Shown in pieces: positions 1-64,000 of a stretch of DNA of 64,000 nt. The stretch is from Eledone cirrhosa (taxonomy: Eukaryota). The notes beneath the pieces were generated by a model that saw only the letters and a program-made list of their open reading frames with translations, was not told where the DNA came from and ran no database searches. How positions within the stretch are numbered: the first letter of the stretch is position 1; every line of letters begins with the position of its first letter. The stretch covers positions 1-64,000 of the forward strand of contig OZ024745.1 of NCBI GenBank assembly GCA_964016885.1, read 5' to 3'. The translations under genes were made by a program, and so were the position numbers.

Positions 1-3000
1 CAGATGTTATATAGGGTGTAGTGGTGACAGAGGTTATATGATATATAGGGTGTAGTGGTGACAGAAGTTATATATATAGGGTGTAGTGGTGACAGAAGTT
101 ATATAGGGTGTAGTGGTGACAGATGTTATATATATAGGGTGTAGTGGTAACAGAAGTTATATACATAGGGTGTAGTGGTGACAGAAGTTATATATATAGG
201 GTGTAGTGGTGACAGAAGTTATATAGGGTGTAGTGGTGACAGAAGTTATATAGGGTGTAGTGGTGACAGAAGTTATATAGGGTGTAGTGGTGACAGAAGT
301 TATATAGGGTGTAGTGGTGACAGATGTTATATAGGGTGTAGTGGTGACAGAAGTTATATATATATAGGGGTGTAGTGGTAACAGAAGTTATATAGGGTGT
401 AGTGGTGACAGAAGTTATATATATAGGGTGTAGTGGTGACAGAAGTTATATAGGGTGTAGTGGTGACAGAAGTTATATAAATAGGGGTGTAGTGGTGACA
501 GAAGTTATATATATAGGGTGTAGTGGTGACAGAAGTTATATATATAGGGAGTAGTGGTGACAGAAGTTATATAGGGTGTAGTGGTGACAGAAGTTATATA
601 TATAGGGTGTAGTGGTGACAGAAGTTATATAGGGTGTAGTGGTGACAGAAGTTATATATATAGGGTGTAGTGGTGACAGAAGTTATATAGGGTGTAGTGG
701 TGACAGAAGTTATATATATAGGGTGTAGTGGTGACAGAAGTTATATATATAGGGTGTAGTGGTGACAGAAGTTATATATATAGGGTGTAGTGGTGACAGA
801 AGTTATATAGGGTGTAGTGGTGACAGAAGTTATATAGGGTGTAGTGGTGACAGAAGTTATATATATAGAGTGTAGTGGTGACAGAAGTTATATAGGGTGT
901 AGTGGTGACAGAAGTTATATAGGGTGTAGTGGTGACAGAGGTTATATAGGGTGTAGTGGTGACAGATGTTATATATATATAGGGTGTAGTGGTGACAGAA
1001 GTTATATAGGGTGTAGTGGTGACAGAAGTTATATAGGATGTAGTGGTGACAGAAGTTATATATATAGGGTGTAGTGGTGACAGAAGTTATATATATAGGG
1101 TGTAGTGGTGACAGAAGTTATATAGGGTGTAGTGGTGACAGAAGTTATATATATAGGGTGTAGTGGTGACAGAAGTTATATAGGGTGTAGTGGTGACAGA
1201 AGTTATATAGGGTGTAGTGGTGACAGAAGTTATATATATAGAGTGTAGTGGTGACAGAAGTTATATAGGGTGTAGTGGTGACAGATGTTATATATATAGG
1301 GTGTAGTGGTGACAGAAGTTATATAGGGTGTAGTGGTGACAGAGGTTATATAGGGTGTAGTGGTGACAGATGTTATATATATAGGGTGTAGTGGTGACAG
1401 AAGTTATATAGGGTGTAGTGGTGACAGAAGTTATATAGGATGTAGTGGTGACAGAAGTTATATATATAGGGTGTAGTGGTGACAGAAGTTATATATATAT
1501 AGGGTGTAGTGGTGACAGAAGTTATATAGGGTGTAGTGGTGACAGAAGTTATATAGGGTGTAGTGGTGACAGAAGTTATATATATAGGGTGTAGTGGTGA
1601 CAGAAGTTATATAGGGTGTAGTGGTGACAGAAGTTATATAGGGTGTAGTGGTGACAGAAGTTATGTATATAGGGTGTAGTGGTGACAGAGGTTATATATA
1701 TAGGGTGTAGTGGTGACAGAAGTTATATAGGGTGTAGTGGTGACAGAAGTTATATATATAGGGTGTAGTGGTGACAGATGTTATATATATAGGGTGTAGT
1801 GGTGACAGAGGTTATATATATAGGGTGTAGTGGTGACAGAAGTTATATATATAGGGGGTAGTGGTGACAGAAGTTATATAGGGTGTAGTAGTGACAGAAG
1901 TTATATATATAGGGTGTAGTGGTGACAGAGGTTATATATATAGGGTGTAGTGGTGACAGAAGTTATATAGGGTGTAGTGGTGACAGAGGTTATATAGGGT
2001 GTAGTGGTGACAGATGTTATATATATAGGGTGTAGTGGTGACAGAAGTTATATAGGGTGTAGTGGTGACAGAAGTTATATAGGATGTAGTGGTGACAGAA
2101 GTTATATATATAGGGTGTAGTGGTGACAGAAGTTATATATATAGGGTGTAGTGGTGACAGAAGTTATATAGGGTGTAGTGGTGACAGAAGTTATATAGGG
2201 TGTAGTGGTGACAGAAGTTATATATATAGGGTGTAGTGGTGACAGAAGTTATATAGGGTGTAGTGGTGACAGATGTTATATATATAGGGTGTAGTGGTGA
2301 CAGAAGTTATATAGGGTGTAGTGGTGACAGAAGTTATATATATAGGGTGTAGTGGTGACAGATGTTATATATATAGGGTGTAGTGGTGACAGAGGTTATA
2401 TATATAGGGTGTAGTGGTGACAGAAGTTATATATATAGGGGGGTAGTGGTGACAGAAGTTATATAGGGGTGTAGTAGTGACAGAAGTTATATATATAGGG
2501 TGTAGTGGTGACAGAGGTTATATATATAGGGTGTAGTGGTGACAGAAATTATATATATAGGGCGTAGTGGTGACAGAAGTTATATAGGGTGTAGTGGTGA
2601 CAGAAGTTATATATATAGGGTGTAGTGGTGACAGAAGTTATATAGGGTGTAGTGGTGACAGAAGTTATATATATAGGGTGTAGTGGTGACAGAAGTTATA
2701 TATATAGGGTGTAGTCGGTGACAGAAGTTATATATATAGGGCGTAGTGGTGACAGAAGTTATACAGGGTGTAGTGGTGACAGAAGTTATATATATAGGGT
2801 GTAGTGGTGACAGAAGTTATATATATAGGGTGTAGTGGTGACAGAGTTATATATATAGGGTGTAGTGGTGACAGAAGTTATATAGGGTGTAGTGGTGACA
2901 GAAGTTATATATATAGGGTGTAGTGGTGACAGAAGTTATATAGGGTGTAGTGGTGACAGAAGTTATATATATAGGGTGTAGTGGTGACAGAAGTTATATA

Positions 3001-6000
3001 TATAGGGCGTAGTGGTGACAGAAGTTATATAGGGTGTAGTGGTGACAGAAGTTATATATATAGGGTGTAGTGGTGACAGAAGTTATATATATATAGGGTG
3101 TAGTGGTGACAGAAGTTATATATATAGGGTGTAGTGGTGACAGAGGTTATATATATAGGGTGTAGTGGTGACAGAAGTTATATAGGGTGTAGTGGTGACA
3201 GAAGTTATATAGGGTGTAGTGGTGACAGAAGTTATATATATAGGGTGTAGTGGTGACAGAAGTTATATAGGGTGTAGTGGTGACAGAAGTTATATAGGGT
3301 GTAGTGGTGACAGAAGTTATATAGGGTGTAGTGGTGACAGATGTTATATATATAGGGTGTAGTGGTGACAGAAGTTATATAGGGTGTAGTGGTGACAGAG
3401 GTTATATAGGGTGTAGTGCTGACAGATGTTATATATATAGGGTGTAGTGGTGACAGAAGTTATATATATAGAGGGTGTAGTGGTGACAGAGGTTATATAT
3501 ATAGGGTGTAGTGGTGACAGAAGTTATATATATAGGGTGTAGTGGTGACAGAAGTTATATATATAGGGTGTAGTGGTGACAGAGGTTATATATATAGGGT
3601 GTAGTGGTGACAGAAGTTATATAGGGTGTAGTGGTGACAGAAGTTATATAGGGTGTAGTGGTGACAGAAGTTATATATATAGGGTGTAGTGGTGACAGAA
3701 GTTATATATATAGGGTGTAGTGGTGACAGAAGTTATATAGGGTGTAGTGGTGACAGATGTTATATATATAGGGTGTAGTGGTGACAGAAGTTATATAGGG
3801 TGTAGTGATGACAGAAGTTATATATATAGGGTGTAGTGGTAACAGAAGTTATATATATAGGGTGTAGTGGTGACAGATGTTATATAGGGTGTAGTAGTGA
3901 CAGAAGTTATATAGGGTGTAGTGGTGACAGAAGTTATATAGGGTGTAGTGGTGACAGATGTTATATGGGGTGTAGTGGTGACAGAAGTTATATAGGGTGT
4001 AGTGGTGACAGAAGTTATATATATATAGGGTGTAGTGGTGACAGAAGTTATATATATAGGGTGTAGTGGTGACAGAAGTTATATAGGGTGTAGTGGTGAC
4101 AGAAGTTATATAGGGGGTAGTGGTGACAGAAGTTATATATATAGGGCGTAGTGGTGACAGAAGTTATATAGGGTGTAGTGGTGACAGAAGTTATATAGGG
4201 TGTAGTGGTGACAGAAGTTATATATATAGGGTGTAGTGGTGACAGAAGTTATATAGGGGGTAGTGGTGACAGAAGTTATATAGGGGGTAGTGGTGACAGA
4301 AGTTATATAGGGTGTAGTGGTGACAGATGTTATATATATAGGGTGTAGTGGTGACAGAAGTTTTATATATAGGGTGTAGTGGTGACAGAAGTTATATATA
4401 TAGGGTGTAGTGGTGACAGAGGTTATATATATAGGGTGTAGTGGTGACAGAAGTTATATAGGGGGTAGTGGTGACAAGTTATATAGGGTGTAGTGGTGAC
4501 AGAAGTTATATATATAGGGTGTAGTGGTGACAGAAGTTATATATATAGGGTTTAGTGGTGACAGAAGTTATATAGTGTGTAGTGGTGACAGAAGTTATAT
4601 AGGGGGTAGTGGTGACAGAAGTTATATAGGGTATAGTGGTGACAGAAGTTATATATATAGGGTGTAGTGGTGACAGAAGTTATATAGGGTGTAGTGGTGA
4701 CAGAAGTTATATATATAGGGCGTAGTGGTGACAGAAGTTATATAGGGTGTAGTGGTGACAGAAGTTATATAGGGTGTAGTGGTGACAGAAGTTATATAGG
4801 GTGTAGTGGTGACAGAAGTTATATATAGGGTGTAGTGGTGACGGAAGTTATATATAGGGTGTAGTGGTGACAGAAGTTATATAGGGTGTAGTGGTGACAG
4901 ATGTTATATATATAGGGTGTAGTGGTGACAGAAGTTATATATATAGGGTGTAGTGGTGACAGAAGTTATATAGGGTGTAGTGGTGACAGAAGTTATATAT
5001 AGGGTGTAGTGGTGACGGAAGTTATATATAGGGTGTAGTGGTGACAGAAGTTATATAGGGTGTAGTGGTGACAGATGTTATATATATAGGGCGTAGTGGT
5101 GACAGAAGTTATATAGGGTGTAGTGGTGACAGAAGTTATATATATAGGGTGTAGTGGTGACAGAAGTTATATATATTGGGTGTAGTTGTGACAGAAGTTA
5201 TATATATAGGGTGTAGTGGTGACAGAAGTTATATAGGGTGTAGTGGTGACAGAGGTTATATATATAGGGTGTAGTGGTGACAGAAGTTATATAGGGTGTA
5301 GTGGTGACAGATGTTATATAGGGTGTAGTGGTGACAGAAGTTATATATATTGGGTGTAGTGGTGACAGAACTTATATATATAGGGGGTAGTGGTGACAGA
5401 AGTTATATAGGGGGTAGTGGTGACAGAAATTATATATATTGGGTGTAGTTGTGACAGAAGTTATATATATAGGGGGTAGTGGTGACAGAAGTTATATAGG
5501 GTGTAGTGGTGACAGAAGTTATATATATAGGGTGTAGTGGTGACAGAAGTTATATATATAGGGTGTAGTGGTGACAGAAGTTATATAGGGGGTAGTGGTG
5601 ACAGAAGTTATATAGGGTGTAGTGGTGACAGAAGTTATATATATAGGGTGTAGTGGTGACAGAAGTTATATATATAGGGTGTAGTGGTGACAGAAGTTAT
5701 ATAGGGTGTAGTGGTGACAGAAGTTATATATATATAGGGTGTAGTGGTGACAGAAGTTATATATATAGGGTGTAGTGGTGACAGAAGTTATATATATAGG
5801 GTGTAGTGGTGACAGAAGTTATATAGGGTGTAGTGGTGACAGAAGTTATATATATAGGGTGTAGTGGTGACAGATGTTATATATATAGGGTGTAGTGGTG
5901 ACAGAAGTTATATATATAGGGTGTAGTGGTGACAGAAGTTATATAGGGTGTAGTGGTGACAGAAGTTATATAGGGTGTAGTGGTGACAGAAGTTATATAG

Positions 6001-9000
6001 GGTGTAGTGGTGACAGATGTTATATATATAGGGTGTAGTGGTGACAGAAGTTATATATATAGGGTGTAGTGGTGACAGAAGTTATATAGGGTGTAGTGGT
6101 GACAGAAGTTATATAGGGTGTAGTAGTGACAGAGGTTATATATATAGGGCGTAGTGGTGACAGATGTTATATAGGGTGTAGTGGTGACAGATGTTATATA
6201 GGGTGTAGTGGTGACAGAAGTTATATATATAGGGCGTAGTGGTGACAGAAGTTATATAGGGTGTAGTGGTGACAGAAGTTATATATATATAGGGTGTAGT
6301 AGTGACAGAGGTAATATATATAGGGGGTAGTGGTGACAGAAGTTATATAGGGTGTAGTGGTGACAGAAGTTATATAGGGTGTAGTGGTGACAGAAGTTAT
6401 ATAGGGTGTAGTGGTGACAGAAGTTATATAGGGTGTAGTGGTAACAGAAGTTATATATATAGGGTGTAGTGGTGACATGTTATATAGGGTGTAGTGGTGA
6501 CAGATGTTATATATATAGGGTGTAGTGGTGACAGAAGTTATATATATAGGGTGTAGTGGTGACAGAAGTTATATATATAGGGTGTAGTGGTGACAGAAGT
6601 TATATATATAGGGTGTAGTGGTGACAGAAGTTATATAGGGGGTAGTGGTGACAGAAGTTATATATATAGGGTGTAGTGGTGACAGATGTTATATATATAG
6701 GGTGTAGTGGTGACAGAAGTTATATAGGGTGTAGTGGTGACAGAAGTTATATAGGGTGTAGTGGTGACAGATGTTATATATATAGGGTGTAGTGGTGACA
6801 GAAGTTATATATATAGGGTGTAGTGGTGACAGAAGTTATATAGGGTGTAGTGGTGACAGATGTTATATATATAGGGTGTAGTGGTGACAGAAGTTACATA
6901 TATAGGGTGTAGTGGTGACAGAAGTTATATAGGGTGTAGTGGTAACAGAAGTTATATATATAGGGTGTAGTGGTGACAGAAGTTATATAAGGTGTAGTGG
7001 TGACAGAAGTTATATAGGGTGTAGTGGTGACAGAAATTATATAGGGTGTAGTGGTGACAGATGTTATATAGGGTGTAGTGGGGACAGATGTTATATAGGG
7101 TGTAGTGGTGACAGAAGTTATATATATAGGGCGTAGTGGTGACAGATGTTATATAGGGTGTAGTGGTGACAGAAGTTATATAGGGTGTAGTGGTGACAGA
7201 AGTTATATATATATAGGGTGTAGTAGTGACAGAGGTTATATATATAGGGGGTAGTGGTGACAGAAGTTATATAGGGTGTAGTGGTGACAGAAGTTATATA
7301 GGGTGTAGTGGTGACAGAAGTTATATAGGGTGTAGTGGTGACAGATGTTATATAGGGTGTAGTGGTGACAGATGTTATATAGGGTGTAGTGGTAACAGAA
7401 GTTATATATATAGGGTGTAGTGGTGACATGTTATATAGGGTGTAGTGGTAACAGAAGTTATATATATAGGGCGTAGTGGTGACAGATGTTATATAGGGTG
7501 TAGTGGTGACAGAGGTTATATATATATAGGGTGTAGTGGTGACAGAAGTTATATATATAGGGTGTAGTGGTGACAGAAGTTATATAGGGTGTAGTGGTGA
7601 CAGATGTTATATATATAGGGTGTAGTGGTAACAGAAGTTATATACATAGGGTGTAGTGGTGACAGAAGTTATATATATAGGGTGTAGTGGTGACAGAAGT
7701 TATATAGGGTGTAGTGGTGACAGAAGTTATATAGGGTGTAGTGGTGACAGAAGTTATATAGGGTGTAGTGGTGACAGAAGTTATATAGGGTGTAGTGGTG
7801 ACAGATGTTATATAGGGTGTAGTGGTGACAGAAGTTATATATATATAGGGTGTAGTGGTAACAGAAGTTATATAGGGTGTAGTGGTGACAGAAGTTATAT
7901 ATATAGGGTGTAGTGGTGACAGAAGTTATATAGGGTGTAGTGGTGACAGAAGTTATATAAATAGGGTGTAGTGGTGACAGAAGTTATATATATAGGGTGT
8001 AGTGGTGACAGAAGTTATATATATAGGGAGTAGTGGTGACAGAAGTTATATAGGGTGTAGTGGTGACAGAAGTTATATATATAGGGTGTAGTGGTGACAG
8101 AAGTTATATAGGGTGTAGTGGTGACAGAAGTTATATATATAGGGTGTAGTGGTGACAGAAGTTATATAGGGTGTAGTGGTGACAGAAGTTATATATATAG
8201 GGTGTAGTGGTGACAGAAGTTATATATATAGGGTGTAGTGGTGACAGAAGTTATATATATAGGGTGTAGTGGTGACAGAAGTTATATAGGGTGTAGTGGT
8301 GACAGAAGTTATATAGGGTGTAGTGGTGACAGAAGTTATATATATAGAGTGTAGTGGTGACAGAAGTTATATAGGGTGTAGTGGTGACAGAAGTTATATA
8401 GGGTGTAGTGGTGACAGAGGTTATATAGGGTGTAGTGGTGACAGATGTTATATATATATAGGGTGTAGTGGTGACAGAAGTTATATAGGGTGTAGTGGTG
8501 ACAGAAGTTATATAGGATGTAGTGGTGACAGAAGTTATATATATAGGGTGTAGTGGTGACAGAAGTTATATATATAGGGTGTAGTGGTGACAGAAGTTAT
8601 ATAGGGTGTAGTGGTGACAGAAGTTATATATATAGGGTGTAGTGGTGACAGAAGTTATATAGGGTGTAGTGGTGACAGAAGTTATATAGGGTGTAGTGGT
8701 GACAGAAGTTATATATATAGAGTGTAGTGGTGACAGAAGTTATATAGGGTGTAGTGGTGACAGATGTTATATATATAGGGTGTAGTGGTGACAGAAGTTA
8801 TATAGGGTGTAGTGGTGACAGAGGTTATATAGGGTGTAGTGGTGACAGATGTTATATATATAGGGTGTAGTGGTGACAGAAGTTATATAGGGTGTAGTGG
8901 TGACAGAAGTTATATAGGATGTAGTGGTGACAGAAGTTATATATATAGGGTGTAGTGGTGACAGAAGTTATATATATATAGGGTGTAGTGGTGACAGAAG

Positions 9001-11280
9001 TTATATAGGGTGTAGTGGTGACAGAAGTTATATAGGGTGTAGTGGTGACAGAAGTTATATATATAGGGTGTAGTGGTGACAGAAGTTATATAGGGTGTAG
9101 TGGTGACAGAAGTTATATAGGGTGTAGTGGTGACAGAAGTTATGTATATAGGGTGTAGTGGTGACAGAGGTTATATATATAGGGTGTAGTGGTGACAGAA
9201 GTTATATAGGGTGTAGTGGTGACAGAAGTTATATATATAGGGTGTAGTGGTGACAGATGTTATATATATAGGGTGTAGTGGTGACAGAGGTTATATATAT
9301 AGGGTGTAGTGGTGACAGAAGTTATATATATAGGGGGTAGTGGTGACAGAAGTTATATAGGGTGTAGTAGTGACAGAAGTTATATATATAGGGTGTAGTG
9401 GTGACAGAGGTTATATATATAGGGTGTAGTGGTGACAGAAGTTATATAGGGTGTAGTGGTGACAGAGGTTATATAGGGTGTAGTGGTGACAGATGTTATA
9501 TATATAGGGTGTAGTGGTGACAGAAGTTATATAGGGTGTAGTGGTGACAGAAGTTATATAGGATGTAGTGGTGACAGAAGTTATATATATAGGGTGTAGT
9601 GGTGACAGAAGTTATATATATAGGGTGTAGTGGTGACAGAAGTTATATAGGGTGTAGTGGTGACAGAAGTTATATAGGGTGTAGTGGTGACAGAAGTTAT
9701 ATATATAGGGTGTAGTGGTGACAGAAGTTATATAGGGTGTAGTGGTGACAGATGTTATATATATAGGGTGTAGTGGTGACAGAAGTTATATAGGGTGTAG
9801 TGGTGACAGAAGTTATATATATAGGGTGTAGTGGTGACAGATGTTATATATATAGGGTGTAGTGGTGACAGAGGTTATATATATAGGGTGTAGTGGTGAC
9901 AGAAGTTATATATATAGGGGGTAGTGGTGACAGAAGTTATATAGGGTGTAGTAGTGACAGAAGTTATATATATAGGGTGTAGTGGTGACAGAGGTTATAT
10001 ATATAGGGTGTAGTGGTGACAGAAATTATATATATAGGGCGTAGTGGTGACAGAAGTTATATAGGGTGTAGTGGTGACAGAAGTTATATATATAGGGTGT
10101 AGTGGTGACAGAAGTTATATAGGGTGTAGTGGTGACAGAAGTTATATATATAGGGTGTAGTGGTGACAGAAGTTATATATATAGGGTGTAGTGGTGACAG
10201 AAGTTATATATATAGGGCGTAGTGGTGACAGAAGTTATACAGGGTGTAGTGGTGACAGAAGTTATATATATAGGGTGTAGTGGTGACAGAAGTTATATAT
10301 ATAGGGTGTAGTGGTGACAGAGTTATATATATAGGGTGTAGTGGTGACAGAAGTTATATAGGGTGTAGTGGTGACAGAAGTTATATATATAGGGTGTAGT
10401 GGTGACAGAAGTTATATAGGGTGTAGTGGTGACAGAAGTTATATATATAGGGTGTAGTGGTGACAGAAGTTATATATATAGGGCGTAGTGGTGACAGAAG
10501 TTATATAGGGTGTAGTGGTGACAGAAGTTATATATATAGGGTGTAGTGGTGACAGAAGTTATATATATATAGGGTGTAGTGGTGACAGAAGTTATATATA
10601 TAGGGTGTAGTGGTGACAGAGGTTATATATATAGGGTGTAGTGGTGACAGAAGTTATATAGGGTGTAGTGGTGACAGAAGTTATATAGGGTGTAGTGGTG
10701 ACAGAAGTTATATATATAGGGTGTAGTGGTGACAGAAGTTATATAGGGTGTAGTGGTGACAGAAGTTATATAGGGTGTAGTGGTGACAGAAGTTATATAG
10801 GGTGTAGTGGTGACAGATGTTATATATATAGGGTGTAGTGGTGACAGAAGTTATATAGGGTGTAGTGGTGACAGAGGTTATATAGGGTGTAGTGCTGACA
10901 GATGTTATATATATAGGGTGTAGTGGTGACAGAAGTTATATATATAGAGGGTGTAGTGGTGACAGAGGTTATATATATAGGGTGTAGTGGTGACAGAAGT
11001 TATATATATAGGGTGTAGTGGTGACAGAAGTTATATATATAGGGTGTAGTGGTGACAGAGGTTATATATATAGGGTGTAGTGGTGACAGAAGTTATATAG
11101 GGTGTAGTGGTGACAGAAGTTATATAGGGTGTAGTGGTGACAGAAGTTATATATATAGGGTGTAGTGGTGACAGAAGTTATATATATAGGGTGTAGTGGT
11201 GACAGAAGTTATATAGGGTGTAGTGGTGACAGATGTTATATATATAGGGTGTAGTGGTGACAGAAGTTATATAGGGTGTA
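1..11280 (+). repeat. Higher-order duplication: 1-~3800 recurs at ~7480-~11280 (offset about 7.48 kb)
   Basis: Identical ORF translations at 844 and 8323 (offset 7479). Rare variants recur in the same order: ATACATAGGG (~161/~7643), GGGAGTAG (~547/~8026), GTGCTGAC (3419/10895), TAGAGGG (~3470/~10946). Confidence 0.9.
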
Positions 11281-11479
11281 GTGGTGACAGAAGTTATATA
11301 TATAGGGTGTAGTGGTGACAGAGGTTATATATATAGGGTGTAGTGGTGACAGAAGTTATATAGGGTGTAGTGGTGACAGAAGTTATATATATAGGGTGTA
11401 GTGGTGACAGATGTTATATATATAGGGTGTAGTGGTGACAGAGGTTATATATATAGGGTGTAGTGGTGACAGAAGTTAT

Positions 11480-14400: not shown

Positions 14401-15300
14401 GAGGTTATATATATAGGGTGTAGTGGTGACAGAAGTTATATATATAGGGCGTAGTGGTGACACAAGTTATATATATAGGGGGTAGTGGTGACAGAAGTTA
14501 TATAGGGTGTAGTAGTGACAGAAGTAATATATATAGGGTGTAGTGGTGACAGAGGTTATATATATAGGGTGTAGTGGTGACAGAAGTTATATAGGGTGTA
14601 GTGGTGACAGAAGTTATATATATAGGGTGTAGTGGTGACAGAAGTTATATAGGGTGTAGTGGTGACAGAAGTTATATATATAGGGTGTAGTGGTGACAGA
14701 AGTTATATATATAGGGTGTAGTGGTGACAGAAGTTATATATATAGGGCGTAGTGGTGACAGAAGTTATATAGGGTGTAGTGGTGACAGAAGTTATATATA
14801 TAGGGTGTAGTGGTGACAGAAGTTATATATATAGGGTGTAGTGGTGACAGAGTTATATATATAGGGTGTAGTGGTGACAGAAGTTATATAGGGTGTAGTG
14901 GTGACAGAAGTTATATATATAGGGTGTAGTGGTGACAGAAGTTATATAGGGTGTAGTGGTGACAGAAGTTATATATATAGGGTGTAGTGGTGACAGAAGT
15001 TATATATATAGGGCGTAGTGTTGACAGAAGTTATATAGGGTGTAGTGGTGACAGAAGTTATATATATAGGGTGTAGTGGTGACAGAAGTTATATATATAG
15101 AGGGTGTAGTGGTGACAGAGGTTATATATATAGGGTGTAGTGGTGACAGAAGTTATATATATAGGGTGTAGTGGTGACAGAAGTTATATATATAGGGTGT
15201 AGTGGTGACAGAGGTTATATATATAGGGTGTAGTGGTGACAGAAGTTATATAGGGTGTAGTGGTGACAGAAGTTATATAGGGTGTAGTGGTGACAGAAGT
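11480..15300 (+). repeat. Higher-order duplication with about 2.81 kb offset (~11.5-12.5 kb vs ~14.3-15.3 kb)
   Basis: Shared rare variants GACACAAG (~11651/~14460), GTGTTGAC (~12210/~15020), TAGAGGG (~12290/~15099) and AAGTAAT units in the same order. Confidence 0.8.
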
Positions 15301-49600: not shown

Positions 49601-52600
49601 CAGAAGTTATATAGGGTGTAGTGGTGACAGATGTTATATAGGGTGTAGTGGTGACAGAAGTTATATATATAGGGTGTAGTAGTGACAGAAGTTATATATA
49701 TAGGGTGTAGTGGTGACAGAAGTTATATAGGGTGTAGTTGTGACAGAAGTTATATAGGGTGTAGTGGTGACAGATGTTATATAGGGTGTAGTGGTGACAG
49801 AAGTTATATATATAGGGTGTAGTGGTGACAGAGGTTATATATATATGGTGTAGTGGTGACAGAAGTTATATAGGGTGTAGTAGTGACAGAAGTTATATAG
49901 GGTGTAGTGGTGACAGAAGTTATATAGGGTGTAGTGGTGACAGAGGTTATATAGGGTGTAGTGGTGACAGAAGTTATATATATAGGGTGCAGTGGTGACA
50001 GATGTTATATAGGGTGTAGTGGTGACAGAAGTTATATAGGGTGTAGTGGTGACAGAAGTTATATAGGGTGTAGTGGTGACAGAAGTTATATAGGGTGTAG
50101 TGGTGACAGAAGTTATATAGGGTGTAGTGGTGACAGATGTTATATATATAGGGTGTAGTGGTGACAGAAGTTATATATATAGGGTGTAGTGGTGACAGAA
50201 GTTATATAGGGTGTAGTGGTGACAGAAGTTATATAGGGTGTAGTGGTGACAGAAGTTATATAGGGTGTAGTGGTGACAGAAGTTATATAGGGTGTAGTAG
50301 TGACAGAAGTTATATATATAGGGTGTAATGGTGACAGAAGTTATATAGGGTGTAGTGGCGACAGAAGTTATATATATAGGGTGTAGTGGTGACAGAAGTT
50401 ATATAGGGCGTAGTGGTGACAGAAGTTATATATATAGGGTGTAGTGGTGACAGAAGTTATATATATAGGGCGTAGTGGTGACAGAAGTTATATAGGGTGT
50501 AGTGGTGACAGAAGTTATATATATAGGGTGTAGTGGTGACAGAAGTTATATATATAGGGTGTAGTGGTGACAGAAGTTATATATATAGGGTGTAGTGGTG
50601 ACAGAGGTTATATATATAGGGTGTAGTGGTGACAGAAGTTATATAGGGTGTAGTGGTGACAGAGGTTATATAGGGTGTAGTGGTGACAGAGGTTATATAG
50701 GGTGTAGTGGTGACAGAAGTTATATATATAGGGTGTAGTGGTGACAGATGTTATATAGGGTGTAGTGGTGACAGAAGTTATATAGGGTGTAGTGGTGACA
50801 GATGTTATATAGGGGGTAGTGGTGACAGAAGTTATATAGGGTGTAGTGGTGACAGAAGTTATATAGGGTGTAGTGGTGACAGAAGTTATATATGGTGTAG
50901 TGGTGACAGAAGTTATATATATAGGGTGTAGTGGTGACAGATGTTATATAGGGTGTAGTGGTGACAGAAGTTATATAGGGTGTAGTGGTGACAGAAGTTA
51001 TATAGGGTGTAGTGGTGACAGATGTTATATATATAGGGTGTAGTGGTGACAGAAGTTATATATATAGGGTGTAGTGGTGACAGAAGTTATATAGGGTGTA
51101 GTAGTGACAGAAGTTATATATATAGGGTGTAGTGGTGACAGAAGTTATATAGGGTGTAGTGGTGACAGAAGTTATATATATAGGGTGTAGTGGTGACAGA
51201 AGTTATATAGGGTGTAGTGGTGACAGAAGTTATATATATAGGGTGTAGTGGTGACAGAAGTTATATAGGGTGTAGTGGTGACAGAAGTTATATATATAGG
51301 GTGTAGTGGTGACAGAAGTTATATAGGGTGTAGTGGTGACAGAAGTTATATAGGGTGTAGTGGTGACAGAAGTTATATATATAGGGTGTAGTGGTGACAG
51401 ATGTTATATATATAGGGTGTAGTGGTGACAGATGTTATATATATAGGGTGTAGTGGTGACAGAGGTTATATATATAGGGTGTAGTGGTGACAGAAGTTAT
51501 ATATATAGGGGGTAGTGGTGACAGAAGTTATATAGGGTGTAGTAGTGACAGAAGTTATATATATAGGGTGTAGTGGTGACAGAGGTTATATATATAGGGT
51601 GTAGTGGTGACAGAAGTTATATATATAGGGCGTAGTGGTGACAGAAGTTATATAGGGTGTAGTGGTGACAGAAGTTATATATATAGGGTGTAGTGGTGAC
51701 AGAAGTTATATAGGGTGTAGTGGTGACAGAAGTTATATATATAGGGTGTAGTGGTGACAGAAGTTATATATATAGGGTGTAGTGGTGACAGAAGTTATAT
51801 ATATAGGGTGTAGTGGTGACAGAAGTTATATATATAGGGCGTAGTGGTGACAGAAGTTATATATATAGGGTGTAGTGGTGACAGAAGTTATATATATAGG
51901 GTGTAGTGGTGACAGAGTTATATATATAGGGTGTAGTGGTGACAGAAGTTATATATATAGGGTGTAGTGGTGACAGAAGTTATATAGGGTGTAGTGGTGA
52001 CAGAAGTTATATATATAGGGTGTAGTGGTGACAGAAGTTATATAGGGTGTAGTGGTGACAGAAGTTATATATATAGGGTGTAGTGGTGACAGAAGTTATA
52101 TATATAGGGCGTAGTGGTGACAGAAGTTATATAGGGTGTAGTGGTGACAGAAGTTATATATATAGGGTGTAGTGGTGACAGAAGTTATATATATATAGGG
52201 TGTAGTGGTGACAGAAGTTATATATATAGGGTGTAGTGGTGACAGAGGTTATATATATAGGGTGTAGTGGTGACAGAAATTATATAGGGTGTAGTGGTGA
52301 CAGAAGTTATATATATAGGGTGTAGTGGTGACAGAAGTTATATAGGGTGTAGTGGTGACAGAAGTTATATAGGGTGTAGTGGTGACAGATGTTATATATA
52401 TAGGGGGTAGTGGTGACAGAAGTTATATAGGGTGTAGTGGTGACAGAGGTTATATAGGGTGTAGTGGTGACATGTTATATATATAGGGTGTAGTGGTGAC
52501 AGAAGTTATATAGGGTGTAGTGGTGACAGAAGTTATATAGGGTGTAGTGGTGACAGAAGTTATATATATAGGGTGTAGTGGTGACAGAAGTTATATAGGG

Positions 52601-55600
52601 TGTAGTGGTGACAGAAGTTATATAAGGTGTAGTGGTGACAGAAGTTATATATATAGGGTGTAGTGGTGACAGAAGTTATATAGGGTGTAGTGGTGACAGA
52701 TGTTATATATATAGGGTGTAGTGGTGACAGAAGTTATATAGGGTGTAGTGGTGACAGAAGTTATATAGGGTGTAGTGGTGACAGAAGTTATATAGGGTGT
52801 AGTGGTGACAGAAGTTATATATATAGGGTGTAGTGGTGACAGAAGTTATATATATATAGGGTGTAGTGGTGACAGAGGTTATATATATAGGGTGTAGTGG
52901 TGACAGAGGTTATATATATAGGGTGTAGTGGTGACAGAAGTTATATATATAGGGTGTAGTGGTGACAGATGTTATATATATAGGGTGTAGTAGTGACAGA
53001 AGTTATATATATAGGGTGTAGTGGTGACAGAGGTTATATATATAGGGTGTAGTGGTGACAGAAGTTATATAGGGTGTAGTGGTGACAGAAGTTATGTAGG
53101 GTGTAGTGGTGACAGATGTTATATAGGGTGTAGTGGTGACAGAAGTTATATATATAGGGTGTAGTAGTGACAGAAGTTATATATATAGGGTGTAGTGGTG
53201 ACAGAGGTTATATATATATGGTGTAGTGGTGACAGAGGTTATATAGGGTGTAGTAGTGACAGAAGTTATATAGGGTGTAGTGTTGACAGAAGTTATATAG
53301 GGTGTAGTGGTGACAGAAGTTATATAGGGTGTAGTGGTGACAGAGGTTATATAGGGTGTAGTGGTGACAGAAGTTATATATATAGGGTGTAGTGGTGACA
53401 GATGTTATATAGGGTGTAGTGGTGACAGAAGTTATATAGGGTGTAGTGGTGACAGAAGTTATATAGGGTGTAGTGGTGACAGATGCTATATATATAGGGT
53501 GTAGTGGTGACAGAAGTTATATATATATAGGGTGTAGTGGTGACAGAAGTTATATAGGGTGTAGTGGTGACAGAAGTTATATAGGGTGTAGTAGTGACAG
53601 AAGTTATATATATAGGGTGTAGTGGTGACAGAAGTTATATAGGGTGTAGTGGTGACAGAAGTTATATATATAGGGTGTAGTGGTGACAGAAGTTATATAG
53701 GGTGTAGTGGTGACAGAAGTTATATATATAGGGTGTAGTGGTGACAGAAGTTATATATATAGGGCGTAGTGGTGACAGAAGTTATATAGGGTGTAGTGGT
53801 GACAGAAGTTATATATATAGGGTGTAGTGGTGACAGAAGTTATATATATAGGGTGTACTGGTGACAGGTTATATATATAGGGTGTAGTGGTGACAGAAGT
53901 TATATAGGGTGTAGTGGTGACAGAGGTTATATAGGGTGTAGTGGTGACAGAAGTTATATATATAGGGTGTAGTGGTGACAGAAGTTATATAGGGTGTAGT
54001 GGTGACAGAGGTTATATAGGGTGTAGTGGTGACAGAAGTTATATATATAGGGTGTAGTGGTGACAGAAGTTATATAGGGTGTAGTGGTGACAGAAGTTAT
54101 ATAGGGTGTAGTAGTGACAGAAGTTATATATATAGGGTGTAGTGGTGACAGAAGTTATATAGGGTGTAGTGGTGACAGAAATTATATATATAGGGTGTAG
54201 TGGTGACAGATGTTATATAGGGTGTAGTGGTGACAGAAGTTATATAGGGTGTAGTGGTGACAGATGTTATATAGGGGGTAGTGGTGACAGAAGTTATATA
54301 GGGTGTAGTGGTGACGGAAGTTATATAGGGTGTAGTGGTGACAGAAGTTATATAGGGTGTAGTGGTGACAGAAGTTATATATATAGGGTGTAGTGGTGAC
54401 AGAAGTTATATATATAGGGCGTAGTGGTGACAGAAGTTATATAGGGTGTAGTGGTGACAGAAGTTATATATATAGGGTGTAGTGGTGACAGAGGTTATAT
54501 ATATATAGGGTGTAGTGGTGACAGAAGTTATATAGGGTGTAGTGGTGACAGAGGTAATATAGGGTGTAGTGGTGACAGAAGTTATATATATAGGGTGTAG
54601 TGGTGACAGATGTTATATAGGGTGTAGTGGTGACAGAAGTTATATAGGGTGTAGTGGTGACAGATGTTATATAGGGGGTAGTGGTGACAGAAGTTATATA
54701 GGGTGTAGTGGTGACAGAAGTTATATATGGTGTAGTGGTGACAGAAGTTATATAGGGTGTAGTGGTGACAGAAGTTATATATATAGGGTGTAGTGGTAAC
54801 AGAAGTTATATATATAGGGTGTAGTGGTGACAGATGTTATATAGGGTGTAGTGGTGACAGAAGTTATATAGGGTGTAGTGGTGACAGATGTTATATAGGG
54901 TGTAGTGGTGACAGAAGTTATATAGGGGGTAGTGGTAACAGAAGTTATATAGGGTGTAGTGGTGACAGATGTTATATAGGGTGTAGTGGTGACAGAAGTT
55001 ATATATATAGGGTGTAGTAGTGACAGAAGTTATATATATAGGGTGTAGTGGTGACAGAAGTTATATAGGGTGTAGTTGTGACAGAAGTTATATAGGGTGT
55101 AGTGGTGACAGATGTTATATAGGGTGTAGTGGTGACAGAAGTTATATATATAGGGTGTAGTGGTGACAGAGGTTATATATATATGGTGTAGTGGTGACAG
55201 AAGTTATATAGGGTGTAGTAGTGACAGAGGTTATATAGGGTGTAGTGGTGACAGAAGTTATATAGGGTGTAGTGGTGACAGAGGTTATATAGGGTGTAGT
55301 GGTGACAGAAGTTATATATATAGGGTGCAGTGGTGACAGATGTTATATAGGGTGTAGTGGTGACAGAAGTTATATAGGGTGTAGTGGTGACAGAAGTTAT
55401 ATAGGGTGTAGTGGTGACAGAAGTTATATAGGGTGTAGTGGTGACAGAAGTTATATAGGGTGTAGTGGTGACAGATGTTATATATATAGGGTGTAGTGGT
55501 GACAGAAGTTATATATATAGGGTGTAGTGGTGACAGAAGTTATATAGGGTGTAGTGGTGACAGAAGTTATATAGGGTGTAGTGGTGACAGAAGTTATATA

Positions 55601-58150
55601 GGGTGTAGTGGTGACAGAAGTTATATAGGGTGTAGTAGTGACAGAAGTTATATATATAGGGTGTAATGGTGACAGAAGTTATATAGGGTGTAGTGGCGAC
55701 AGAAGTTATATATATAGGGTGTAGTGGTGACAGAAGTTATATAGGGCGTAGTGGTGACAGAAGTTATATATATAGGGTGTAGTGGTGACAGAAGTTATAT
55801 ATATAGGGCGTAGTGGTGACAGAAGTTATATAGGGTGTAGTGGTGACAGAAGTTATATATATAGGGTGTAGTGGTGACAGAAGTTATATATATAGGGTGT
55901 AGTTGTGACAGAAGTTATATATATAGGGTGTAGTGGTGACAGAGGTTATATATATAGGGTGTAGTGGTGACAGAAGTTATATAGGGTGTAGTGGTGACAG
56001 AGGTTATATAGGGTGTAGTGGTGACAGAGGTTATATAGGGTGTAGTGGTGACAGAAGTTATATATATAGGGTGTAGTGGTGACAGATGTTATATAGGGTG
56101 TAGTGGTGACAGAAGTTATATAGGGTGTAGTGGTGACAGATGTTATATAGGGGGTAGTGGTGACAGAAGTTATATAGGGTGTAGTGGTGACAGAAGTTAT
56201 ATAGGGTGTAGTGGTGACAGAAGTTATATATGGTGTAGTGGTGACAGAAGTTATATAGGGTGTAGTGGTGACAGAAGTTATATATATAGGGTGTAGTGGT
56301 AACAGAAGTTATATATATAGGGTGTAGTGGTGACAGATGTTATATAGGGTGTAGTGGTGACAGAAGTTATATAGGGGGTAGTGGTGACAGAGGTTATATA
56401 GGGTGTAGTGGTGACAGAAGTTATATAGGGTGTAGTGGTGACAGATGTTATATAGGGTGTAGTGGTGACAGATGTTATATAGGGTGTAGTGGTGACAGAA
56501 GTTATATATATAGGGTGTAGTGGTGACAGAAGTTATATAGGGTGTAGTGGTGACAGATGTTATATAGGGTGTAGTGGTGACAGAAGTTATATAGGGGGTA
56601 GTGGTGACAGAGGTTATATAGGGTGTAGTGGTGACAGAAATTATATAGGGTGTAGTGGTGACATGTTATATAGGGTGTAGTGGTGACAGAAGTTATATAT
56701 ATAGGGTGTAGTGGTGACAGAAGTTATATAGGGTGTAGTGGTGACAGAAGTTATATAGGGTGTAGTGGTGACAGATGTTATATAGGGTGTAGTGGTGACA
56801 GAAGTTATATATATAGGGTGTAGTGGTGACAGATGTTATATAGGGGGTAGTGGTGACAGAAGTTATATATATAGGGTGTAGTGGTAACAGAAGTTATATA
56901 GGGTGTAGTGGTGACAGAAGTTATATAGGGTGTAGTGGTAACAGAAGTTATATATATAGGGTGTAGTGGTGACAGATGTTATATAGGGGGTAGTGGTGAC
57001 AGAAGTTATATAGGGGGTAGTGGTGACAGAAGTTATATATATAGGGTGTAGTGGTAACAGAAGTTATATAGGGTGTAGTGGTGACAGAAGTTATATATAT
57101 AGGGTGTAGTGGTGACAGAAGTTATATATATAGGGTGTAGTGGTGACAGAAGTTATATATATAGGGCGTAGTGGTGACAGAAGTTATATAGGGTGTAGTG
57201 GTGACAGAAGTTATATATATAGGGTGTAGTGGTGACAGAAGTTATATAGGGTGTAGTGGTGACAGAAGTTATATAGGGTGTAGTGGTGACAGATGTTATA
57301 TAGGGTGTAGTGGTGACAGAAGTTATATATACAGGGTGTAGTGGTGACAGAAGTTATATAGGGTGTAGTGGTGACAGAAGTTATATAGGGTGTAGTGGTG
57401 ACAGAAGTTATATAGGGTGTAGTGGTGACAGAAGTTATATATATAGGGTGTAGTGGTGACAGAAGTTATATATATATAGGGTGTAGTGGTGACAGAGGTT
57501 ATATATATAGGGTGTAGTGGTGACAGAAGTTATATATATAGGGTGGAGTGGTGACAGAAGTTATATAGGGTGTAGTGGTGACAGAAGTTATATAGGGTGT
57601 AGTGGTGAGAGAAGTTATATATATAGGGTGTAGTGGTGACAGAAGTTATATATATATAGGGTGTAGTGGTGACAGAGGTTATATATATATAGGGTGTAGT
57701 GGTGACAGAAGTTATATATATAGGGTGGAGTGGTGACAGAAGTTATATATATAGGGTGTAGTGGTGACAGAAGTTATATATATATAGGGTGTAGTGGTGA
57801 CAGAGGTTATATATATAGGGTGTAGTGGTGACAGAAGTTATATATATAGGGTGGAGTGGTGACAGAAGTTATATATATATAGGGTGTAGTGGTGACAGAG
57901 GTTATATATATAGGGTGTAGTGGTGACAGAAGTTATATATATAGGGTGGAGTGGTGACAGAAGTTATATATATAGGGTGTAGTGGTGACAGAAGTTATAT
58001 ATATAGGGTGTAGTGGTGACAGAAGTTATATAGGGTGTAGTGGTGACAGAAGTTATATATATAGGGTGTAGTGGTGACAGATGTTATATATAGGGTGTAG
58101 TGGTGACAGAAGTTATATAGGGTGTAGTGGTGACAGAAGTTATATAGGGT
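25690..58150 (+). repeat. Higher-order repeat domain: about 8.8 kb block present as about four complete or mosaic copies
   Basis: Identical ORF translations at 29419/38211/47830/53195, 30424/39185/48804/54169 and 31048/39809/49455/54793. Marker GTACTGGTGACAGG at 30082/38874/48493/53858. Marker GGGTATAG at ~26026/~34794/~44410. Boundaries approximate. Confidence 0.88.
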
Positions 58151-60284
58151 GTAGTGGTGACAGAAGTTATATATATAGGGTGTAGTGGTGACAGATGTTA
58201 TATATATAGGGTGTAGTGGTGACAGATGTTATATATATAGGGTGTAGTGGTGACAGATGTTATATATATAGGGTGTAGTGGTGACAGAAGTTATATAGGG
58301 TGTAGTGGTGACAGAAGTTATATAGGGTGTAGTGGTGACAGAAGTTATATATATAGGGTGTAGTGGTGACAGATGTTATATAGGGTGTAGTGGTGACAGA
58401 AGTTATATAGGGTGTAGTGGTGTCAGAAGTTATATATATAGGGTGTAGTGCTGACAGATGTTATATAGGGTGTAGTGGTGACAGAAGTTATATATATAGG
58501 GTGTAGTGGTGACAGATGTTATATATATAGGGTGTAGTGGTGACAGAAGTTATATATATAGGGTGTAGTGGTGACAGATGTTATATAGGGTGTAGTGGTG
58601 ACAGAAGTTATATATATAGGGTGTAGTGGTGACAGATGTTATATATATAGGGTGTAGTGGTGACAGAAGTTATATATATAGGGCGTAGTGGTGACAGAAG
58701 TTATATAGGGTGTAGTGGTGACAGAAGTTATATATATAGGGTGTAGTGGTGACAGAAGTTATATATATATAGGGTGTAGTGGTGACAGAAGTTATATATA
58801 TAGGGTGTAGTGGTGACAGAGGTTATATATATAGGGTGTAGTGGTGACAGAAGTTATATAGGGTGTAGTGGTGACAGAAGTTATATAGGGTGTAGTGGTG
58901 ACAGAAGTTATATAGGGTGTAGTGGTGACAGAAGTTATATATAGGGTGTAGTGGTGACAGATGTTATATATATAGGGTGTAGTGGTGACAGAAGTTATAT
59001 ATATAGGGTGTAGTGGTGACAGAAGTTATATAGGGTGTAGTGGTGACAGAAGTTATATAGGGTGTAGTGGTGACAGAAGTTATATATATAGGGTGTAGTG
59101 GTGACAGAAGTTATATATATAGGGTGTAGTGGTGACAGAAGTTATATATAGGGTGTAGTGGTGACAGAGGTTATATAGGGTGTAGTGGTGACAGAGGTTA
59201 TATAGGGTGTAGTGGTGACAGAGGTTATATAGGGTGTAGTGGTGACAGAAGTTATATATATAGGGTGTAGTGGTGACAGAAGTTATATATATAGGGTGTA
59301 GTGGTGACAGAAGTTATATATATAGGGTGTAGTGGTGACAGAAGTTATATAGGGTGTAGTGGTGACAGATGTTATATAGGGTGTAGTGGTGACAGATGTT
59401 ATATAGGGTGTAGTGGTGACAGAAGTTATATATATAGGGTGTAGTGGTGACAGATGTTATATAGGGTGTAGTGGTGACAGAAGTTATATATATAGGGTGT
59501 AGTGGTGACAGAAGTTATATAGGGTGTAGTGGTGACAGAGGTTATATATATAGGGTGTAGTGGTGACAGAAGTTATATATATAGGGTGTAGTGGTGACAG
59601 AAGTTATATAGGGTGTAGTGGTGACAGATGTTATATAGGGTGTAGTGGTGACAGAAGTTATATATATAGGGTGTAGTGGTGACAGATGTTATATAGGGTG
59701 TAGTGGTGACAGAAGTTATATATATAGGGTGTAGTGGTGACAGAAGTTATATAGGGTGTAGTGGTGACAGAGGTTATATATATAGGGTGTAGTGGTGACA
59801 GAAGTTATATATATAGGGTGTAGTGGTGACAGAAGTTATATAGGGTGTAGTGGTGACAGAGGTTATATATATAGGGTGTAGTGGTGACAGAAGTTATATA
59901 TATAGGGTGTAGTGGTGACAGAAGTTATATAGGGTGTAGTCGTGACAGAAGTTATATAGGGTGTAGTGGTGACAGAAGTTATATATAGGGTGTAGTGGTG
60001 ACAGAAGTAAACAATATGAAGGTTTTCTGTTTTCCAACATAAAAATATGTTTTAGCTATTTTTTTCATTGCAAACCTAACACAACTTTGAACTGCAAATT
60101 CCTTTTATTGAGGACTTAAGAATGAAATATTTCTTATTCTTCCTCCATCCCACCAAGAAATTAATTTACATAAAACTTATTTTCAAGAAAAAATCAAATC
60201 AAAAACATGAGGAAAAAGTGAGAACTGAGTTAGAAACCCAGATTTAAACAAGATTTAAAATACTTTTAAGTAACTAATCTAACA

Positions 60285-60290
60285 ACTTAC
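60285..60290 (-). promoter_or_regulatory. 5' splice donor TGG|GTAAGT
   Basis: Plus-strand ACTTAC at 60285-60290 is a consensus GTAAGT immediately after the Trp codon. Confidence 0.92.
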
Positions 60291-60398
60291 CCAAGTTGTT
60301 GTTCTTGTGTTATGATCAATGAAGAATGGTCGAGAGTTTGGAGCAATAGAGGTAGCCCAACCAGCAGGTAAAGGCTCTTCGTTAACATCACTAATTGA
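60291..60398 (-). CDS. Nedd4: Internal 108-bp coding exon encoding most of a WW domain ([36 protein letters not shown]) of a NEDD4-family HECT E3 ubiquitin ligase, most like WW3 of NEDD4/NEDD4L
   Basis: Manual translation gives 36 sense codons between CAG and GTAAGT. WW signature LPxGW...R.FFIDHNT.TTTW closely resembles human NEDD4 WW3 ([27 protein letters not shown], recalled). The WW call is strong; orthology rests on this single exon. Confidence 0.88.
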
Positions 60399-60425
60399 CT
60401 GCAATCAAACAGGAGAAACAGTAAC
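60399..60425 (-). promoter_or_regulatory. 3' splice acceptor with pyrimidine-rich tract (..GTTACTGTTTCTCCTGTTTGATTGCAG|)
   Basis: Reverse complement of 60399-60425. A CTAAT branch-point-like pentamer lies further upstream at about 60452-60456 on the minus strand. Confidence 0.8.
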
Positions 60426-60980
60426 AGCTAGATACTTAATTAATCAACTTAATTAGCCAGTAATTCAGTCTGAGGCTAAATATGGAATATTGGAGAATTA
60501 TTATTTTCTAGGATTACACAATAAGGACAAATTACATCTGAACAGAATTGTCTTTTTATTAGAATAATTATAATTCCAATCTCTAATCAGTTTCAGAGTA
60601 AATACCAAAAGTATTATAGATTTCTAAAGCCAATAGAAGACCCTAGTAACTACATCCTATAAACAAAGAGTAAAATATTTACTGCCAGCCAGAATCAAAT
60701 TAATTTTGTCAACACCCAAGCCCCTAATCAATTATACAAACATCACATTAGACAGGGATAATCAAATATTATTCTCTAGAAATGTAAATATATTTCCATT
60801 TATTGTTTTGAGTGACATTTTGTTAACTGGGATGGCAAGATGGCAGAGAAATGTGAAATATCAAAGCCATGTAGTCCAATATCATCAGAATATGAAAGAA
60901 GAAGGGGATATAAATATTTCATTTTTAAGATGTTACACTTCAATTACAAACCTGAATACTGATTTCTTTAAAAAGTCTGT

Positions 60981-61100
60981 CTTAAGCCTGGCTGCTCATC
61001 AGGCCAATGCTTATCCCAGTTTATACAAGATTCCCTGGACAGGACAGCAGACCATCACAGGGTAAACTCCTGCTCAAGAACACAACACACCACTAGGTCA
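60981..61100 (-). mobile_element. Decayed, internally deleted SINE-like fragment
   Basis: Segments CATCAGGCC..GCTTATCCCAGTTT, CCCTGGA.....ACCATCACAGGGT and CTCAAGAACACAACAC resemble, in order, the reverse complement of invertebrate tRNA-derived SINE bodies. Recalled similarity only, not searched. Confidence 0.45.
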
Positions 61101-61518: not shown

Positions 61519-61530
61519 CCCCCCCCCCCC
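61519..61530 (+). repeat. Poly-C run (12 nt)
   Basis: Directly visible. Confidence 0.9.
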
Positions 61531-61579
61531 ACACTTTCCATGATAGTACAGAAATAAAATAGAAGTACCCCAGTTCACC

Positions 61580-63965: not shown

Positions 63966-64000
63966 CTCACAACTCACACACTGTCAAACATGAATAGATT

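What the first reader, a model, noticed from the sequence alone, without database searches (positions are those of the whole stretch)
1..60398. A minisatellite of at least 60 kb sits inside an intron that splits a WW domain of a Nedd4-like gene
Seen: a clean minus-strand exon ends at ...TTTW|GTAAGT, and about 280 bp into that intron an uninterrupted array begins and runs off the window. Known: WW domains continue with xDP, and NEDD4 proteins need downstream WW and HECT exons, so the gene should resume beyond the array. Inference: Pol II must transcribe, and the spliceosome must bridge, at least 60 kb of near-perfect repeat in a broadly conserved gene. This parallels the satellite-filled giant introns of Drosophila Y fertility genes (kl-3, kl-5). 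Array length could affect transcription time or expression level.
Basis: partly seen in the sequence, partly recalled or inferred. Interest (0 to 1): 0.75.

Follow-up and report, generated by a model that had tools for sequence, protein, structure and literature searches.

The report
Giant minisatellite inside octopus NEDD4 intron
A 27-33-base DNA repeat found at only one locus of an octopus genome fills tens of kilobases (60 kb as assembled) between two consecutive coding exons of the NEDD4 gene; it likely grew in place and is likely spliced out as tolerated filler, like the many other large repeat blocks in the same gene.

Summary
Observation confirmed. Window 60291-60398 (-) encodes WW3 of octopus NEDD4; 282 bp into the intron an uninterrupted array of about 2,055 units of 27-33 bp runs to base 1, which is the end of a 134.7-Mb scaffold. 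The next exon (EDPR...) lies on unplaced contig C608, behind 18.6 kb of the same repeat in the same orientation. All 2,166 exact core matches in the genome lie in these two pieces. Twenty-one exons join into 682 stop-free codons, 96.9% identical to O. sinensis NEDD4; the last 192 codons are not assembled. C608 overlaps the window's array (likely the other allele), so the lengths do not add: the intron is about 64-68 kb as assembled, and read depth suggests 35-56 kb of array. The array is not special here: the gene holds 38 arrays of 1 kb or more (another of 55 kb), and 7 of 7 samples from the scaffold's first 10 Mb were mostly array. It is a very large single-locus VNTR, likely tolerated; the kl-3/kl-5 parallel fails on size and repeat type. 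Splicing across it is inferred, not shown. The scan already noted such introns in other genes of this genome.

The parts
60291..60398 (-). 13th coding exon of NEDD4 as mapped here (36 codons, phase 0-0), WW3 up to ...TTTW
60285..60290 (-). 5' splice site GTAAGT of the array-bearing intron
60009..60290 (-). 282 bp of unique intron between donor and array; one read-derived contig per run spans exon, flank and the first 29-30 array bases
1..60008 (-). single-locus minisatellite, about 2,055 units of 27/29/31/33 bp (21-bp core plus a variable TA run), C-rich on the gene's sense strand; runs to the scaffold end
50966..54635 (-). copy 1 of a 126-unit (3.7-kb) block present four times in the array
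45602..49270 (-). copy 2 of the 3.7-kb block
35987..39651 (-). copy 3 of the 3.7-kb block
27192..30890 (-). copy 4 of the 3.7-kb block (most diverged: 3-5 recurrent-variant differences from the others)
13350..25230 (.). error-rich patch of the array (29 odd-length units in 400, against 0-4 per 200 elsewhere); likely thin read cover
3786..16984 (-). part of the array that is collinear with C608:7838-18084, with about 98 extra units in the window
1..3666 (-). tail of the array, a near-exact copy of window 7511-11142 (117 of 124 units the same, no recurrent-variant difference): recent duplication or assembler repeat
60399..64000 (-). 3' part of the preceding 5,701-bp intron (previous exon at C5:66100-66135), with high-copy dispersed repeats near 61700-62260 and 62800-63200

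Best explanation
This is a very large single-locus minisatellite lying between the WW3 exon and the next exon of an octopus NEDD4 gene whose assembled exons are intact up to HECT residue 682; it likely grew in place and is likely transcribed and spliced out as tolerated filler. Shown: the repeat occurs only here; its two ends face consecutive exons in one orientation; units differ by TA-run length and point variants; 58% of units sit in exact repeats of 20 or more units, with 3-6-kb blocks copied up to four times. Inferred: a short intronic seed with a TA run duplicated, slippage set the 27/31-bp variants, and unequal exchange or template switching copied kilobase blocks. Inferred: Pol II reads through and the exons are defined at their own strong sites (donor 282 bp before the array, acceptor 3,867 bp after it). 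The sense strand offers almost no decoys (14 AG, no GTAAG or GTGAG, no AATAAA or ATTAAA in 60 kb), which would help but is not required. The array broke the assembly: C5 ends inside it and C608 carries an overlapping, likely allelic, copy of its far end. True length is likely 35-65 kb and likely differs between alleles.
For: Single locus: 514+172 exact 44-mers and 1,642+524 exact 20-mers, all in the window and C608. Next exon at C608:22433-22552 abuts the window's exon without gap in the alignment with 8 homologues. 21 exons with AG/GT ends, 682 codons, no stop, 660 of 681 identical to P0003. Left junction present in read-derived contigs of X1-X3. Block structure: 1,188 of 2,054 units in exact runs of 20 or more; longest window-C608 run 95 units against 7-8 after shuffling. 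Context: 38 arrays of 1 kb or more in the gene's C5 span, 18 of 5 kb or more, 8 of 10 kb or more, each with its own unit; 7 of 7 samples at C5 1-10 Mb at least 80% one array, against 2 of 32 interstitial samples. No orientation rule: 19 of 38 arrays C-rich on the sense strand, and the 54.8-kb array carries 124 AG per kb on the sense strand.
Against: No splice junction across this intron was observed in this species. NEDD4 residues 713-904, with the catalytic lobe, have no match of their own in the assembly (41 of 41 candidates scored, best 63% over 27 aa, paralogues), and the last, cut exon on C608 is one base out of frame. X1-X3 are one sample and may be the assembly's own data; their contigs hold only 29-30 array bases, under the tool's 31-base bar for bridging. 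The C608-side junction was not checked against reads. No read or contig spans the array. Neutrality is argued from context only; long alleles of the human CACNA1C repeat are associated with lower expression in two tissues (PMC13131567, abstract).
Confidence: 0.78

Rival explanations
1. The array is real and intronic but the 60 kb is inflated: with thin coverage the assembler tiled near-identical blocks, or pieces of both alleles, end to end, and the true array is nearer 30-45 kb. This changes the size, not the biology of the best explanation.
For: Depth of a core repeat contig over flank depth gives 344, 341 and 551 copies (pooled 390) against 591 in the window's assembly, i.e. about 35, 35 and 56 kb. 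The tail copy has no recurrent-variant difference from its source, and units 1200-1600 are error-rich. The window runs past the point where C608's array ends.
Against: The four 3.7-kb copies differ by whole-unit indels or recurrent variants and have different neighbours, so at most two can be alleles of one place. Flank depth rests on about 13 reads in all. Long reads can under-sample satellites (PMC12758392, abstract and opening paragraph; shown there for simple satellites). A long and a short allele would give the same mean.
Confidence: 0.3
2. The array is a regulatory device: its length would delay or damp NEDD4 transcription, or its C-rich RNA would bind dedicated proteins, as at the Drosophila Y loops.
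For: The sense strand is almost free of AG, donors and poly(A) signals. At 1-4 kb/min (rates recalled) the intron adds 17-68 min. An intronic 30-bp VNTR in human CACNA1C is associated with expression.
Against: The intron is about a tenth of a gene of about 620 kb, with three longer introns. 37 other arrays with unrelated units fill the same gene, in either orientation, many rich in sense-strand AG. The block copies are nearly identical, so the length is recent and unsettled.
Confidence: 0.1
3. Misjoin or dead gene: the exon was joined to an unrelated satellite by the assembler, or the gene is truncated at a chromosome end.
For: The scaffold ends in the array; the next exon is on another contig; the last 192 codons are absent and the last assembled exon is out of frame by one base.
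Against: The repeat has no other locus to be misjoined from. Two independent misjoins would have to put it, in one orientation, beside consecutive exons. The left junction is in the reads. 96.9% identity over 681 residues without a stop, and no second NEDD4 copy among the 50 matches. C5 has telomere repeats at its far end and none at this end, so the chromosome goes on.
Confidence: 0.07

Closest known systems
TRACT, the 30-bp VNTR in intron 3 of human CACNA1C (PMC13131567, abstract read)
   Same: Single-locus array of about 30-bp variant units inside an intron of a conserved gene; kilobases to tens of kilobases; allele structure differs.
   Different: TRACT is 3-30+ kb; this array is 35-65 kb and one of 38 in its gene. 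No population or expression data here.
Drosophila Y-loop genes kl-3, kl-5 (PMC6508621, passages read; PMC11207136, abstract read)
   Same: Coding exons separated by long tandem-repeat DNA that Pol II must cross (inferred here, shown there).
   Different: There: megabase introns, genes over 4 Mb, simple satellites (AATAT, AAGAC), Y-linked spermatocyte genes, Blanks and Heph required. Here: an intron of about 64-68 kb, a private 27-33-bp unit, a conserved ubiquitin ligase, no evidence of a dedicated programme.
Amphioxus 'mirage' minisatellites (PMC3087553, abstract read)
   Same: Intronic minisatellites in an invertebrate gene; the 40-bp array in a later intron on C608 fits this kind.
   Different: The 60-kb array starts 282 bp from the donor and its core matches no splice boundary or other fetched DNA above chance.
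NEDD4/NEDD4L C2-4WW-HECT E3 ligases (O. sinensis XP_029648348.1, P0003)
   Same: 96.9% identical over 681 residues; C2, four WW and the first part of HECT mapped.
   Different: Split over two contigs in this assembly; residues 713-904 not assembled.

Membership tests
Single-locus minisatellite / VNTR | Head-to-tail units of about 10-60 bp (definition recalled) | tested here: met
   27-33-bp units, no interruption in 60 kb
Single-locus minisatellite / VNTR | One locus in the genome | tested here: met
   All 2,166 exact 20-mer matches lie in the window (1,642) and C608 (524), which overlap; exact matches only, assembly may be incomplete
Single-locus minisatellite / VNTR | Interspersed variant units | tested here: met
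   141 unit types in the window, 70 shared with C608
Single-locus minisatellite / VNTR | Copy number varies between alleles | tested here: inconclusive
   Window and C608 differ by a block of about 98 units, 8 single-unit gaps in 259 columns and their end point; alleles and assembly error cannot be told apart
Drosophila Y-loop gigantic-intron genes | Megabase-scale introns | tested here: not met
   64,157-68,391 bp as assembled; longest intron of the gene 221,470 bp
Drosophila Y-loop gigantic-intron genes | Simple satellites shared with other heterochromatin (AATAT, AAGAC) | tested here: not met
   Private 27-33-bp unit
Drosophila Y-loop gigantic-intron genes | Intronic repeat RNA visible as a loop; dedicated RNA-binding proteins; spermatocyte expression | not testable with these tools
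   Needs RNA FISH, nascent RNA and genetics
NEDD4 E3 ligase | C2 domain and four WW domains | tested here: met
   Exons match P0003 residues 82-207 at 90-100%; WW at C5:85319-85408, C5:81352-81441, window 60291-60371 and C608:23170-25112
NEDD4 E3 ligase | Complete HECT domain with catalytic lobe | tested here: inconclusive
   Residues to 712 present on C608; 713-904 not found in the assembly
Mirage minisatellite | Unit copied from an intron-exon boundary | tested here: not met
   Main array: best match of the 21-bp core in 1.31 Mb of other fetched DNA, which includes the gene's exon boundaries, is 17 of 21; shuffled cores reach 16-18

The most novel reading that the evidence does not exclude
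A conserved ubiquitin-ligase gene works inside a domain of at least 10 Mb built of private giant minisatellites: 63% of its span is tandem repeat and its two alleles differ by kilobases in a single intron. Octopods would then run a general, Y-loop-like programme for reading and splicing through repeat arrays in ordinary genes, and array length would be a fast-mutating, heritable dial on transcription time and dose of NEDD4.
Probability: 0.12. Interest if true: 0.7.

Novelty: new member of a known kind. Interest (0 to 1): 0.32.

Why it matters
As one locus it is a large but ordinary intronic VNTR. It matters in two modest ways. It shows why this gene is split and its last fifth missing in a chromosome-scale assembly, and warns against adding repeat lengths across contigs. 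And it adds a conserved, single-copy gene to the evidence that this octopod lineage tolerates 10-60-kb private minisatellites in introns, a pattern my searches did not find in print. With unique flanks on both sides and allele differences already visible, the locus would be a clean test of whether intron repeat length changes gene output.

Tried and rejected
1. C1:649-711 kb as the downstream half (WW plus HECT exons near a scaffold start): no copy of the array in 200 kb and only 40-67% identity in the HECT and WW matches of 29 or more residues; a paralogue. The loci on C2, C4 and C6 were also paralogues. 2. Adding the two arrays (60.0 + 18.6 kb, intron 82,722 bp): rejected, they overlap. 3. 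RNA evidence: no RNA holder listed for window 60010-64000 (the query was mostly intron, so the blank says nothing on expression). No protein from this species spanning the junction turned up among 96 hits under 497 aa, the 120 listed of 2,433 hits or the 25 members of three clusters. 4. RAD-seq run X4 had no depth at the exon or junction. 5. Selection on array orientation: 19 of 38 C-rich on sense; unit-level AATAAA/ATTAAA in 0 of 38 on sense and 2 of 38 on antisense, too few to judge. 6. Origin from a dispersed repeat or from the downstream HECT acceptor: no match above shuffled controls. 7. Subtelomeric satellite at a true chromosome end: no telomere repeats at base 1, and the gene continues on C608. 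8. My first exon set gave 4 stops: two boundaries were mis-set and the last, cut exon is out of frame; one search corrects the two and leaves that 22nd exon out of the count. One search was translated in the wrong frame and is not used. 9. The 40 control stretches were round-number positions of my choice, not random draws. 10. Literature: 'octopus, minisatellite, intron, genome assembly' gave 1 unrelated review; 'octopus, minisatellite, chromosome-level' gave 0; 'NEDD4, octopus, intron' gave 1 unrelated review; 25 of 37 listings showed nothing on this by title or abstract start. No supplements were opened; genome papers may mention such arrays there.
Full report
1. The observation. The minus strand holds a 108-bp exon at 60398-60291 with AG before it and GTAAGT after it. 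It encodes a WW domain cut three profile positions short (Pfam 36.3 bits, positions 1-28 of 31), closest to WW3 of human NEDD4L. The array begins 282 bp into the intron and runs to base 1: 2,055 unit anchors, mostly 27 or 31 bp apart, 141 unit types, no foreign insertion. The unit is a 21-bp core plus a TA run of varying length; substitution divergence from the canonical unit averages 1.6%. The window is C5:1-64000 of a 134.7-Mb scaffold, so the array runs off the assembly, not just off the window.

2. The gene. A HECT exon of the same gene is identical over 40 residues to NEDD4 of Octopus sinensis and O. bimaculoides. Thirteen coding exons lie on C5 between 602,393 and 60,291, and nine on an unplaced 36,388-bp contig, C608. 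C608 starts with 18,565 bp of the same repeat, C-rich on the sense strand as in the window, then 3,867 bp of other DNA, then an exon that begins EDPR. In an alignment with eight homologues the window's exon and this exon abut without gap. With boundaries set by hand against the homologue, 21 exons all have AG/GT ends and give 682 codons with no stop, 660 of 681 identical to P0003. A 22nd exon is cut by the end of C608 and is one base out of frame at its start; I left it out of that count. It is likely a read error at a thin contig end, but this is untested. Residues 713-904 have no match of their own in the assembly.

3. One locus, two overlapping pieces. Every exact match in the 3.0-Gb genome lies in these two pieces: 514 + 172 for a 44-mer and 1,642 + 524 for a 20-mer. 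Written as strings of unit variants, C608 units 361-618 match window units 1674-1927 in 247 of 259 columns, and units 266-408 match 1477-1623 in 130 of 147. The longest exact shared run is 95 units, against 7-8 after shuffling. C608 therefore overlaps the far part of the window's array, and lacks a block of about 98 units that the window has; it is likely the other allele. Some 14 units before C608's array ends, the window's array instead repeats its own units 1674-1798 (117 of 124 the same, no recurrent-variant difference) until the scaffold stops. The intron is 64,157 bp if the array ended at base 1 and 68,391 bp if that last duplication runs on to C608's end; the naive sum of 82,722 bp is wrong.

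4. What reads say. In each of three runs of one sample, possibly the assembly's own data, a single 1,866-1,867-letter contig runs from 61,844 through the exon to 59,979 or 59,980, that is 29-30 bases into the array. That is about as far as a 31-mer graph can reach into a repeat (my inference) but under the tool's 31-base bar. The depth of a core repeat contig over flank depth gives 344, 341 and 551 copies (pooled 390), against 591 in the window's assembly: about 35, 35 and 56 kb, pooled 40 kb, as a mean of two alleles. Flank depth sums to about 13, and long reads can under-sample satellites (PMC12758392, abstract and opening paragraph), so this confirms tens of kilobases but not 60 kb. The C608-side junction was not checked against reads, and nothing spans the array.

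5. How it grew. 1,188 of 2,054 units lie in exact repeats of 20 or more units. One 3.7-kb block occurs four times with 119-123 of 126-128 columns the same, small unit indels or recurrent variants between copies, and different neighbours. This is the pattern expected from recent kilobase-scale duplications by unequal exchange or template switching, on top of slippage in the TA run (mechanism inferred from general knowledge of minisatellites). Units 1200-1600 are error-rich, so some joins may be the assembler's. The core has no parent in 1.31 Mb of other fetched DNA beyond chance, and the array ends in one decayed unit, which fits growth in place.

6. How it is likely handled. On the sense strand the 60 kb hold 14 AG (8,031 on the other strand), no GTAAG or GTGAG, no AATAAA or ATTAAA and no GGG. 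Few decoys would ease exon definition at the normal sites. But this is not a rule of the locus: of 38 arrays of 1 kb or more in the gene's C5 span, 19 are C-rich on the sense strand, and a 54.8-kb array in the first intron has 124 AG per kb there. At 1-4 kb/min (rates recalled) this intron costs 17-68 min of 155-620 min for a gene of about 620 kb. Transcription and splicing across it are inferred from the intact frame; I have no RNA from this species.

7. Context. Tandem repeats cover 62.8% of C5:1-602,393, or 58.6% without this array; 18 arrays reach 5 kb and 8 reach 10 kb, each with its own unit. Three introns of the gene are longer: 221,470, 127,852 and 93,613 bp. Of 10-kb samples at round positions, 7 of 7 within C5 1-10 Mb were at least 80% one array (6 wholly), against 2 of 32 elsewhere; the 40th sample, C5's far end, was telomere repeat. 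Earlier notes of this scan report 29-117-kb private arrays in introns of SLC22, RB1, ANKRD26-like and TBK1-like genes of the same genome (unreviewed, not checked by me), and one note on C608's 40-bp array mentions a likely mRNA contig for the later exons (not checked).

8. Comparison and verdict. It meets the tested features of a single-locus VNTR, and is larger than the 3-30+ kb CACNA1C intronic repeat (PMC13131567, abstract). It fails the size and repeat-type features of the Drosophila Y-loop genes (PMC6508621, passages; PMC11207136, abstract), though the task of crossing long repeats is of the same kind. In O. bimaculoides, gene bodies of broadly expressed genes and satellites are methylated (PMC9476566, passages); this unit's canonical form has no CpG (98 in 60 kb), so that gives no handle. 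Four searches found no paper on such arrays in octopods.

Noticed in passing
G000:C608:29012-31706 (L043-L044): A 40-bp array of 67 copies fills 2,695 of 2,880 bp of a HECT intron and resembles the acceptor and first bases of the next exon; all 67 copies have GG where the acceptor has AG. Already noted by the scan as a 'mirage'.
   Followed up: partly
G000:C608:36295-36388 (L044): The last exon on the contig is one base short at its start against the homologue's frame and is cut by the contig end; residues 713-904 are not in the assembly.
   Followed up: partly
G000:C5:1-10,000,000 (L095-L097, L111-L114): A minisatellite-dense domain: 7 of 7 samples were at least 80% one array, with different unit lengths (19-156 bp). 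This scaffold end has no telomere, the other has. It may be pericentromeric or an assembly break in a longer chromosome; in three Octopus species NEDD4 lies on contigs of 192-216 Mb.
   Followed up: partly
G000:C5:505450-560284 (L080-L085): A second giant array (35-bp unit, 54.8 kb) in the 221-kb first intron of the same gene; it carries AATAAA/ATTAAA at 11 per kb on the antisense strand only.
   Followed up: partly
G000:C608:18580-20980 (L042-L043): Right behind the array: two long palindromes (about 180 and 300 bp) and a LINE-like reverse-transcriptase fragment on the minus strand, seen by eye (motif recalled).
   Followed up: no
P0131 and P0002 in alignment A1 /: The O. bimaculoides NEDD4 models lack or replace exons in the C2 and WW2-WW3 regions, which may mean this locus is hard to assemble in relatives too.
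   Followed up: no
G000:C1:649086-710731 (L033-L040): Another WW-plus-HECT ligase gene near a scaffold start, with 1.7-6.8-kb minisatellites in its introns; 23% of the 200 kb fetched is tandem repeat.
   Followed up: no
P0209 and P0197: An unnamed short ORF reads through the same EDPR exon with the same boundaries, so the intron position is shared with another sample; another unnamed ORF has TTW-EDPR contiguous but reads into the next intron, so the intron may be absent in some animals.
   Followed up: no
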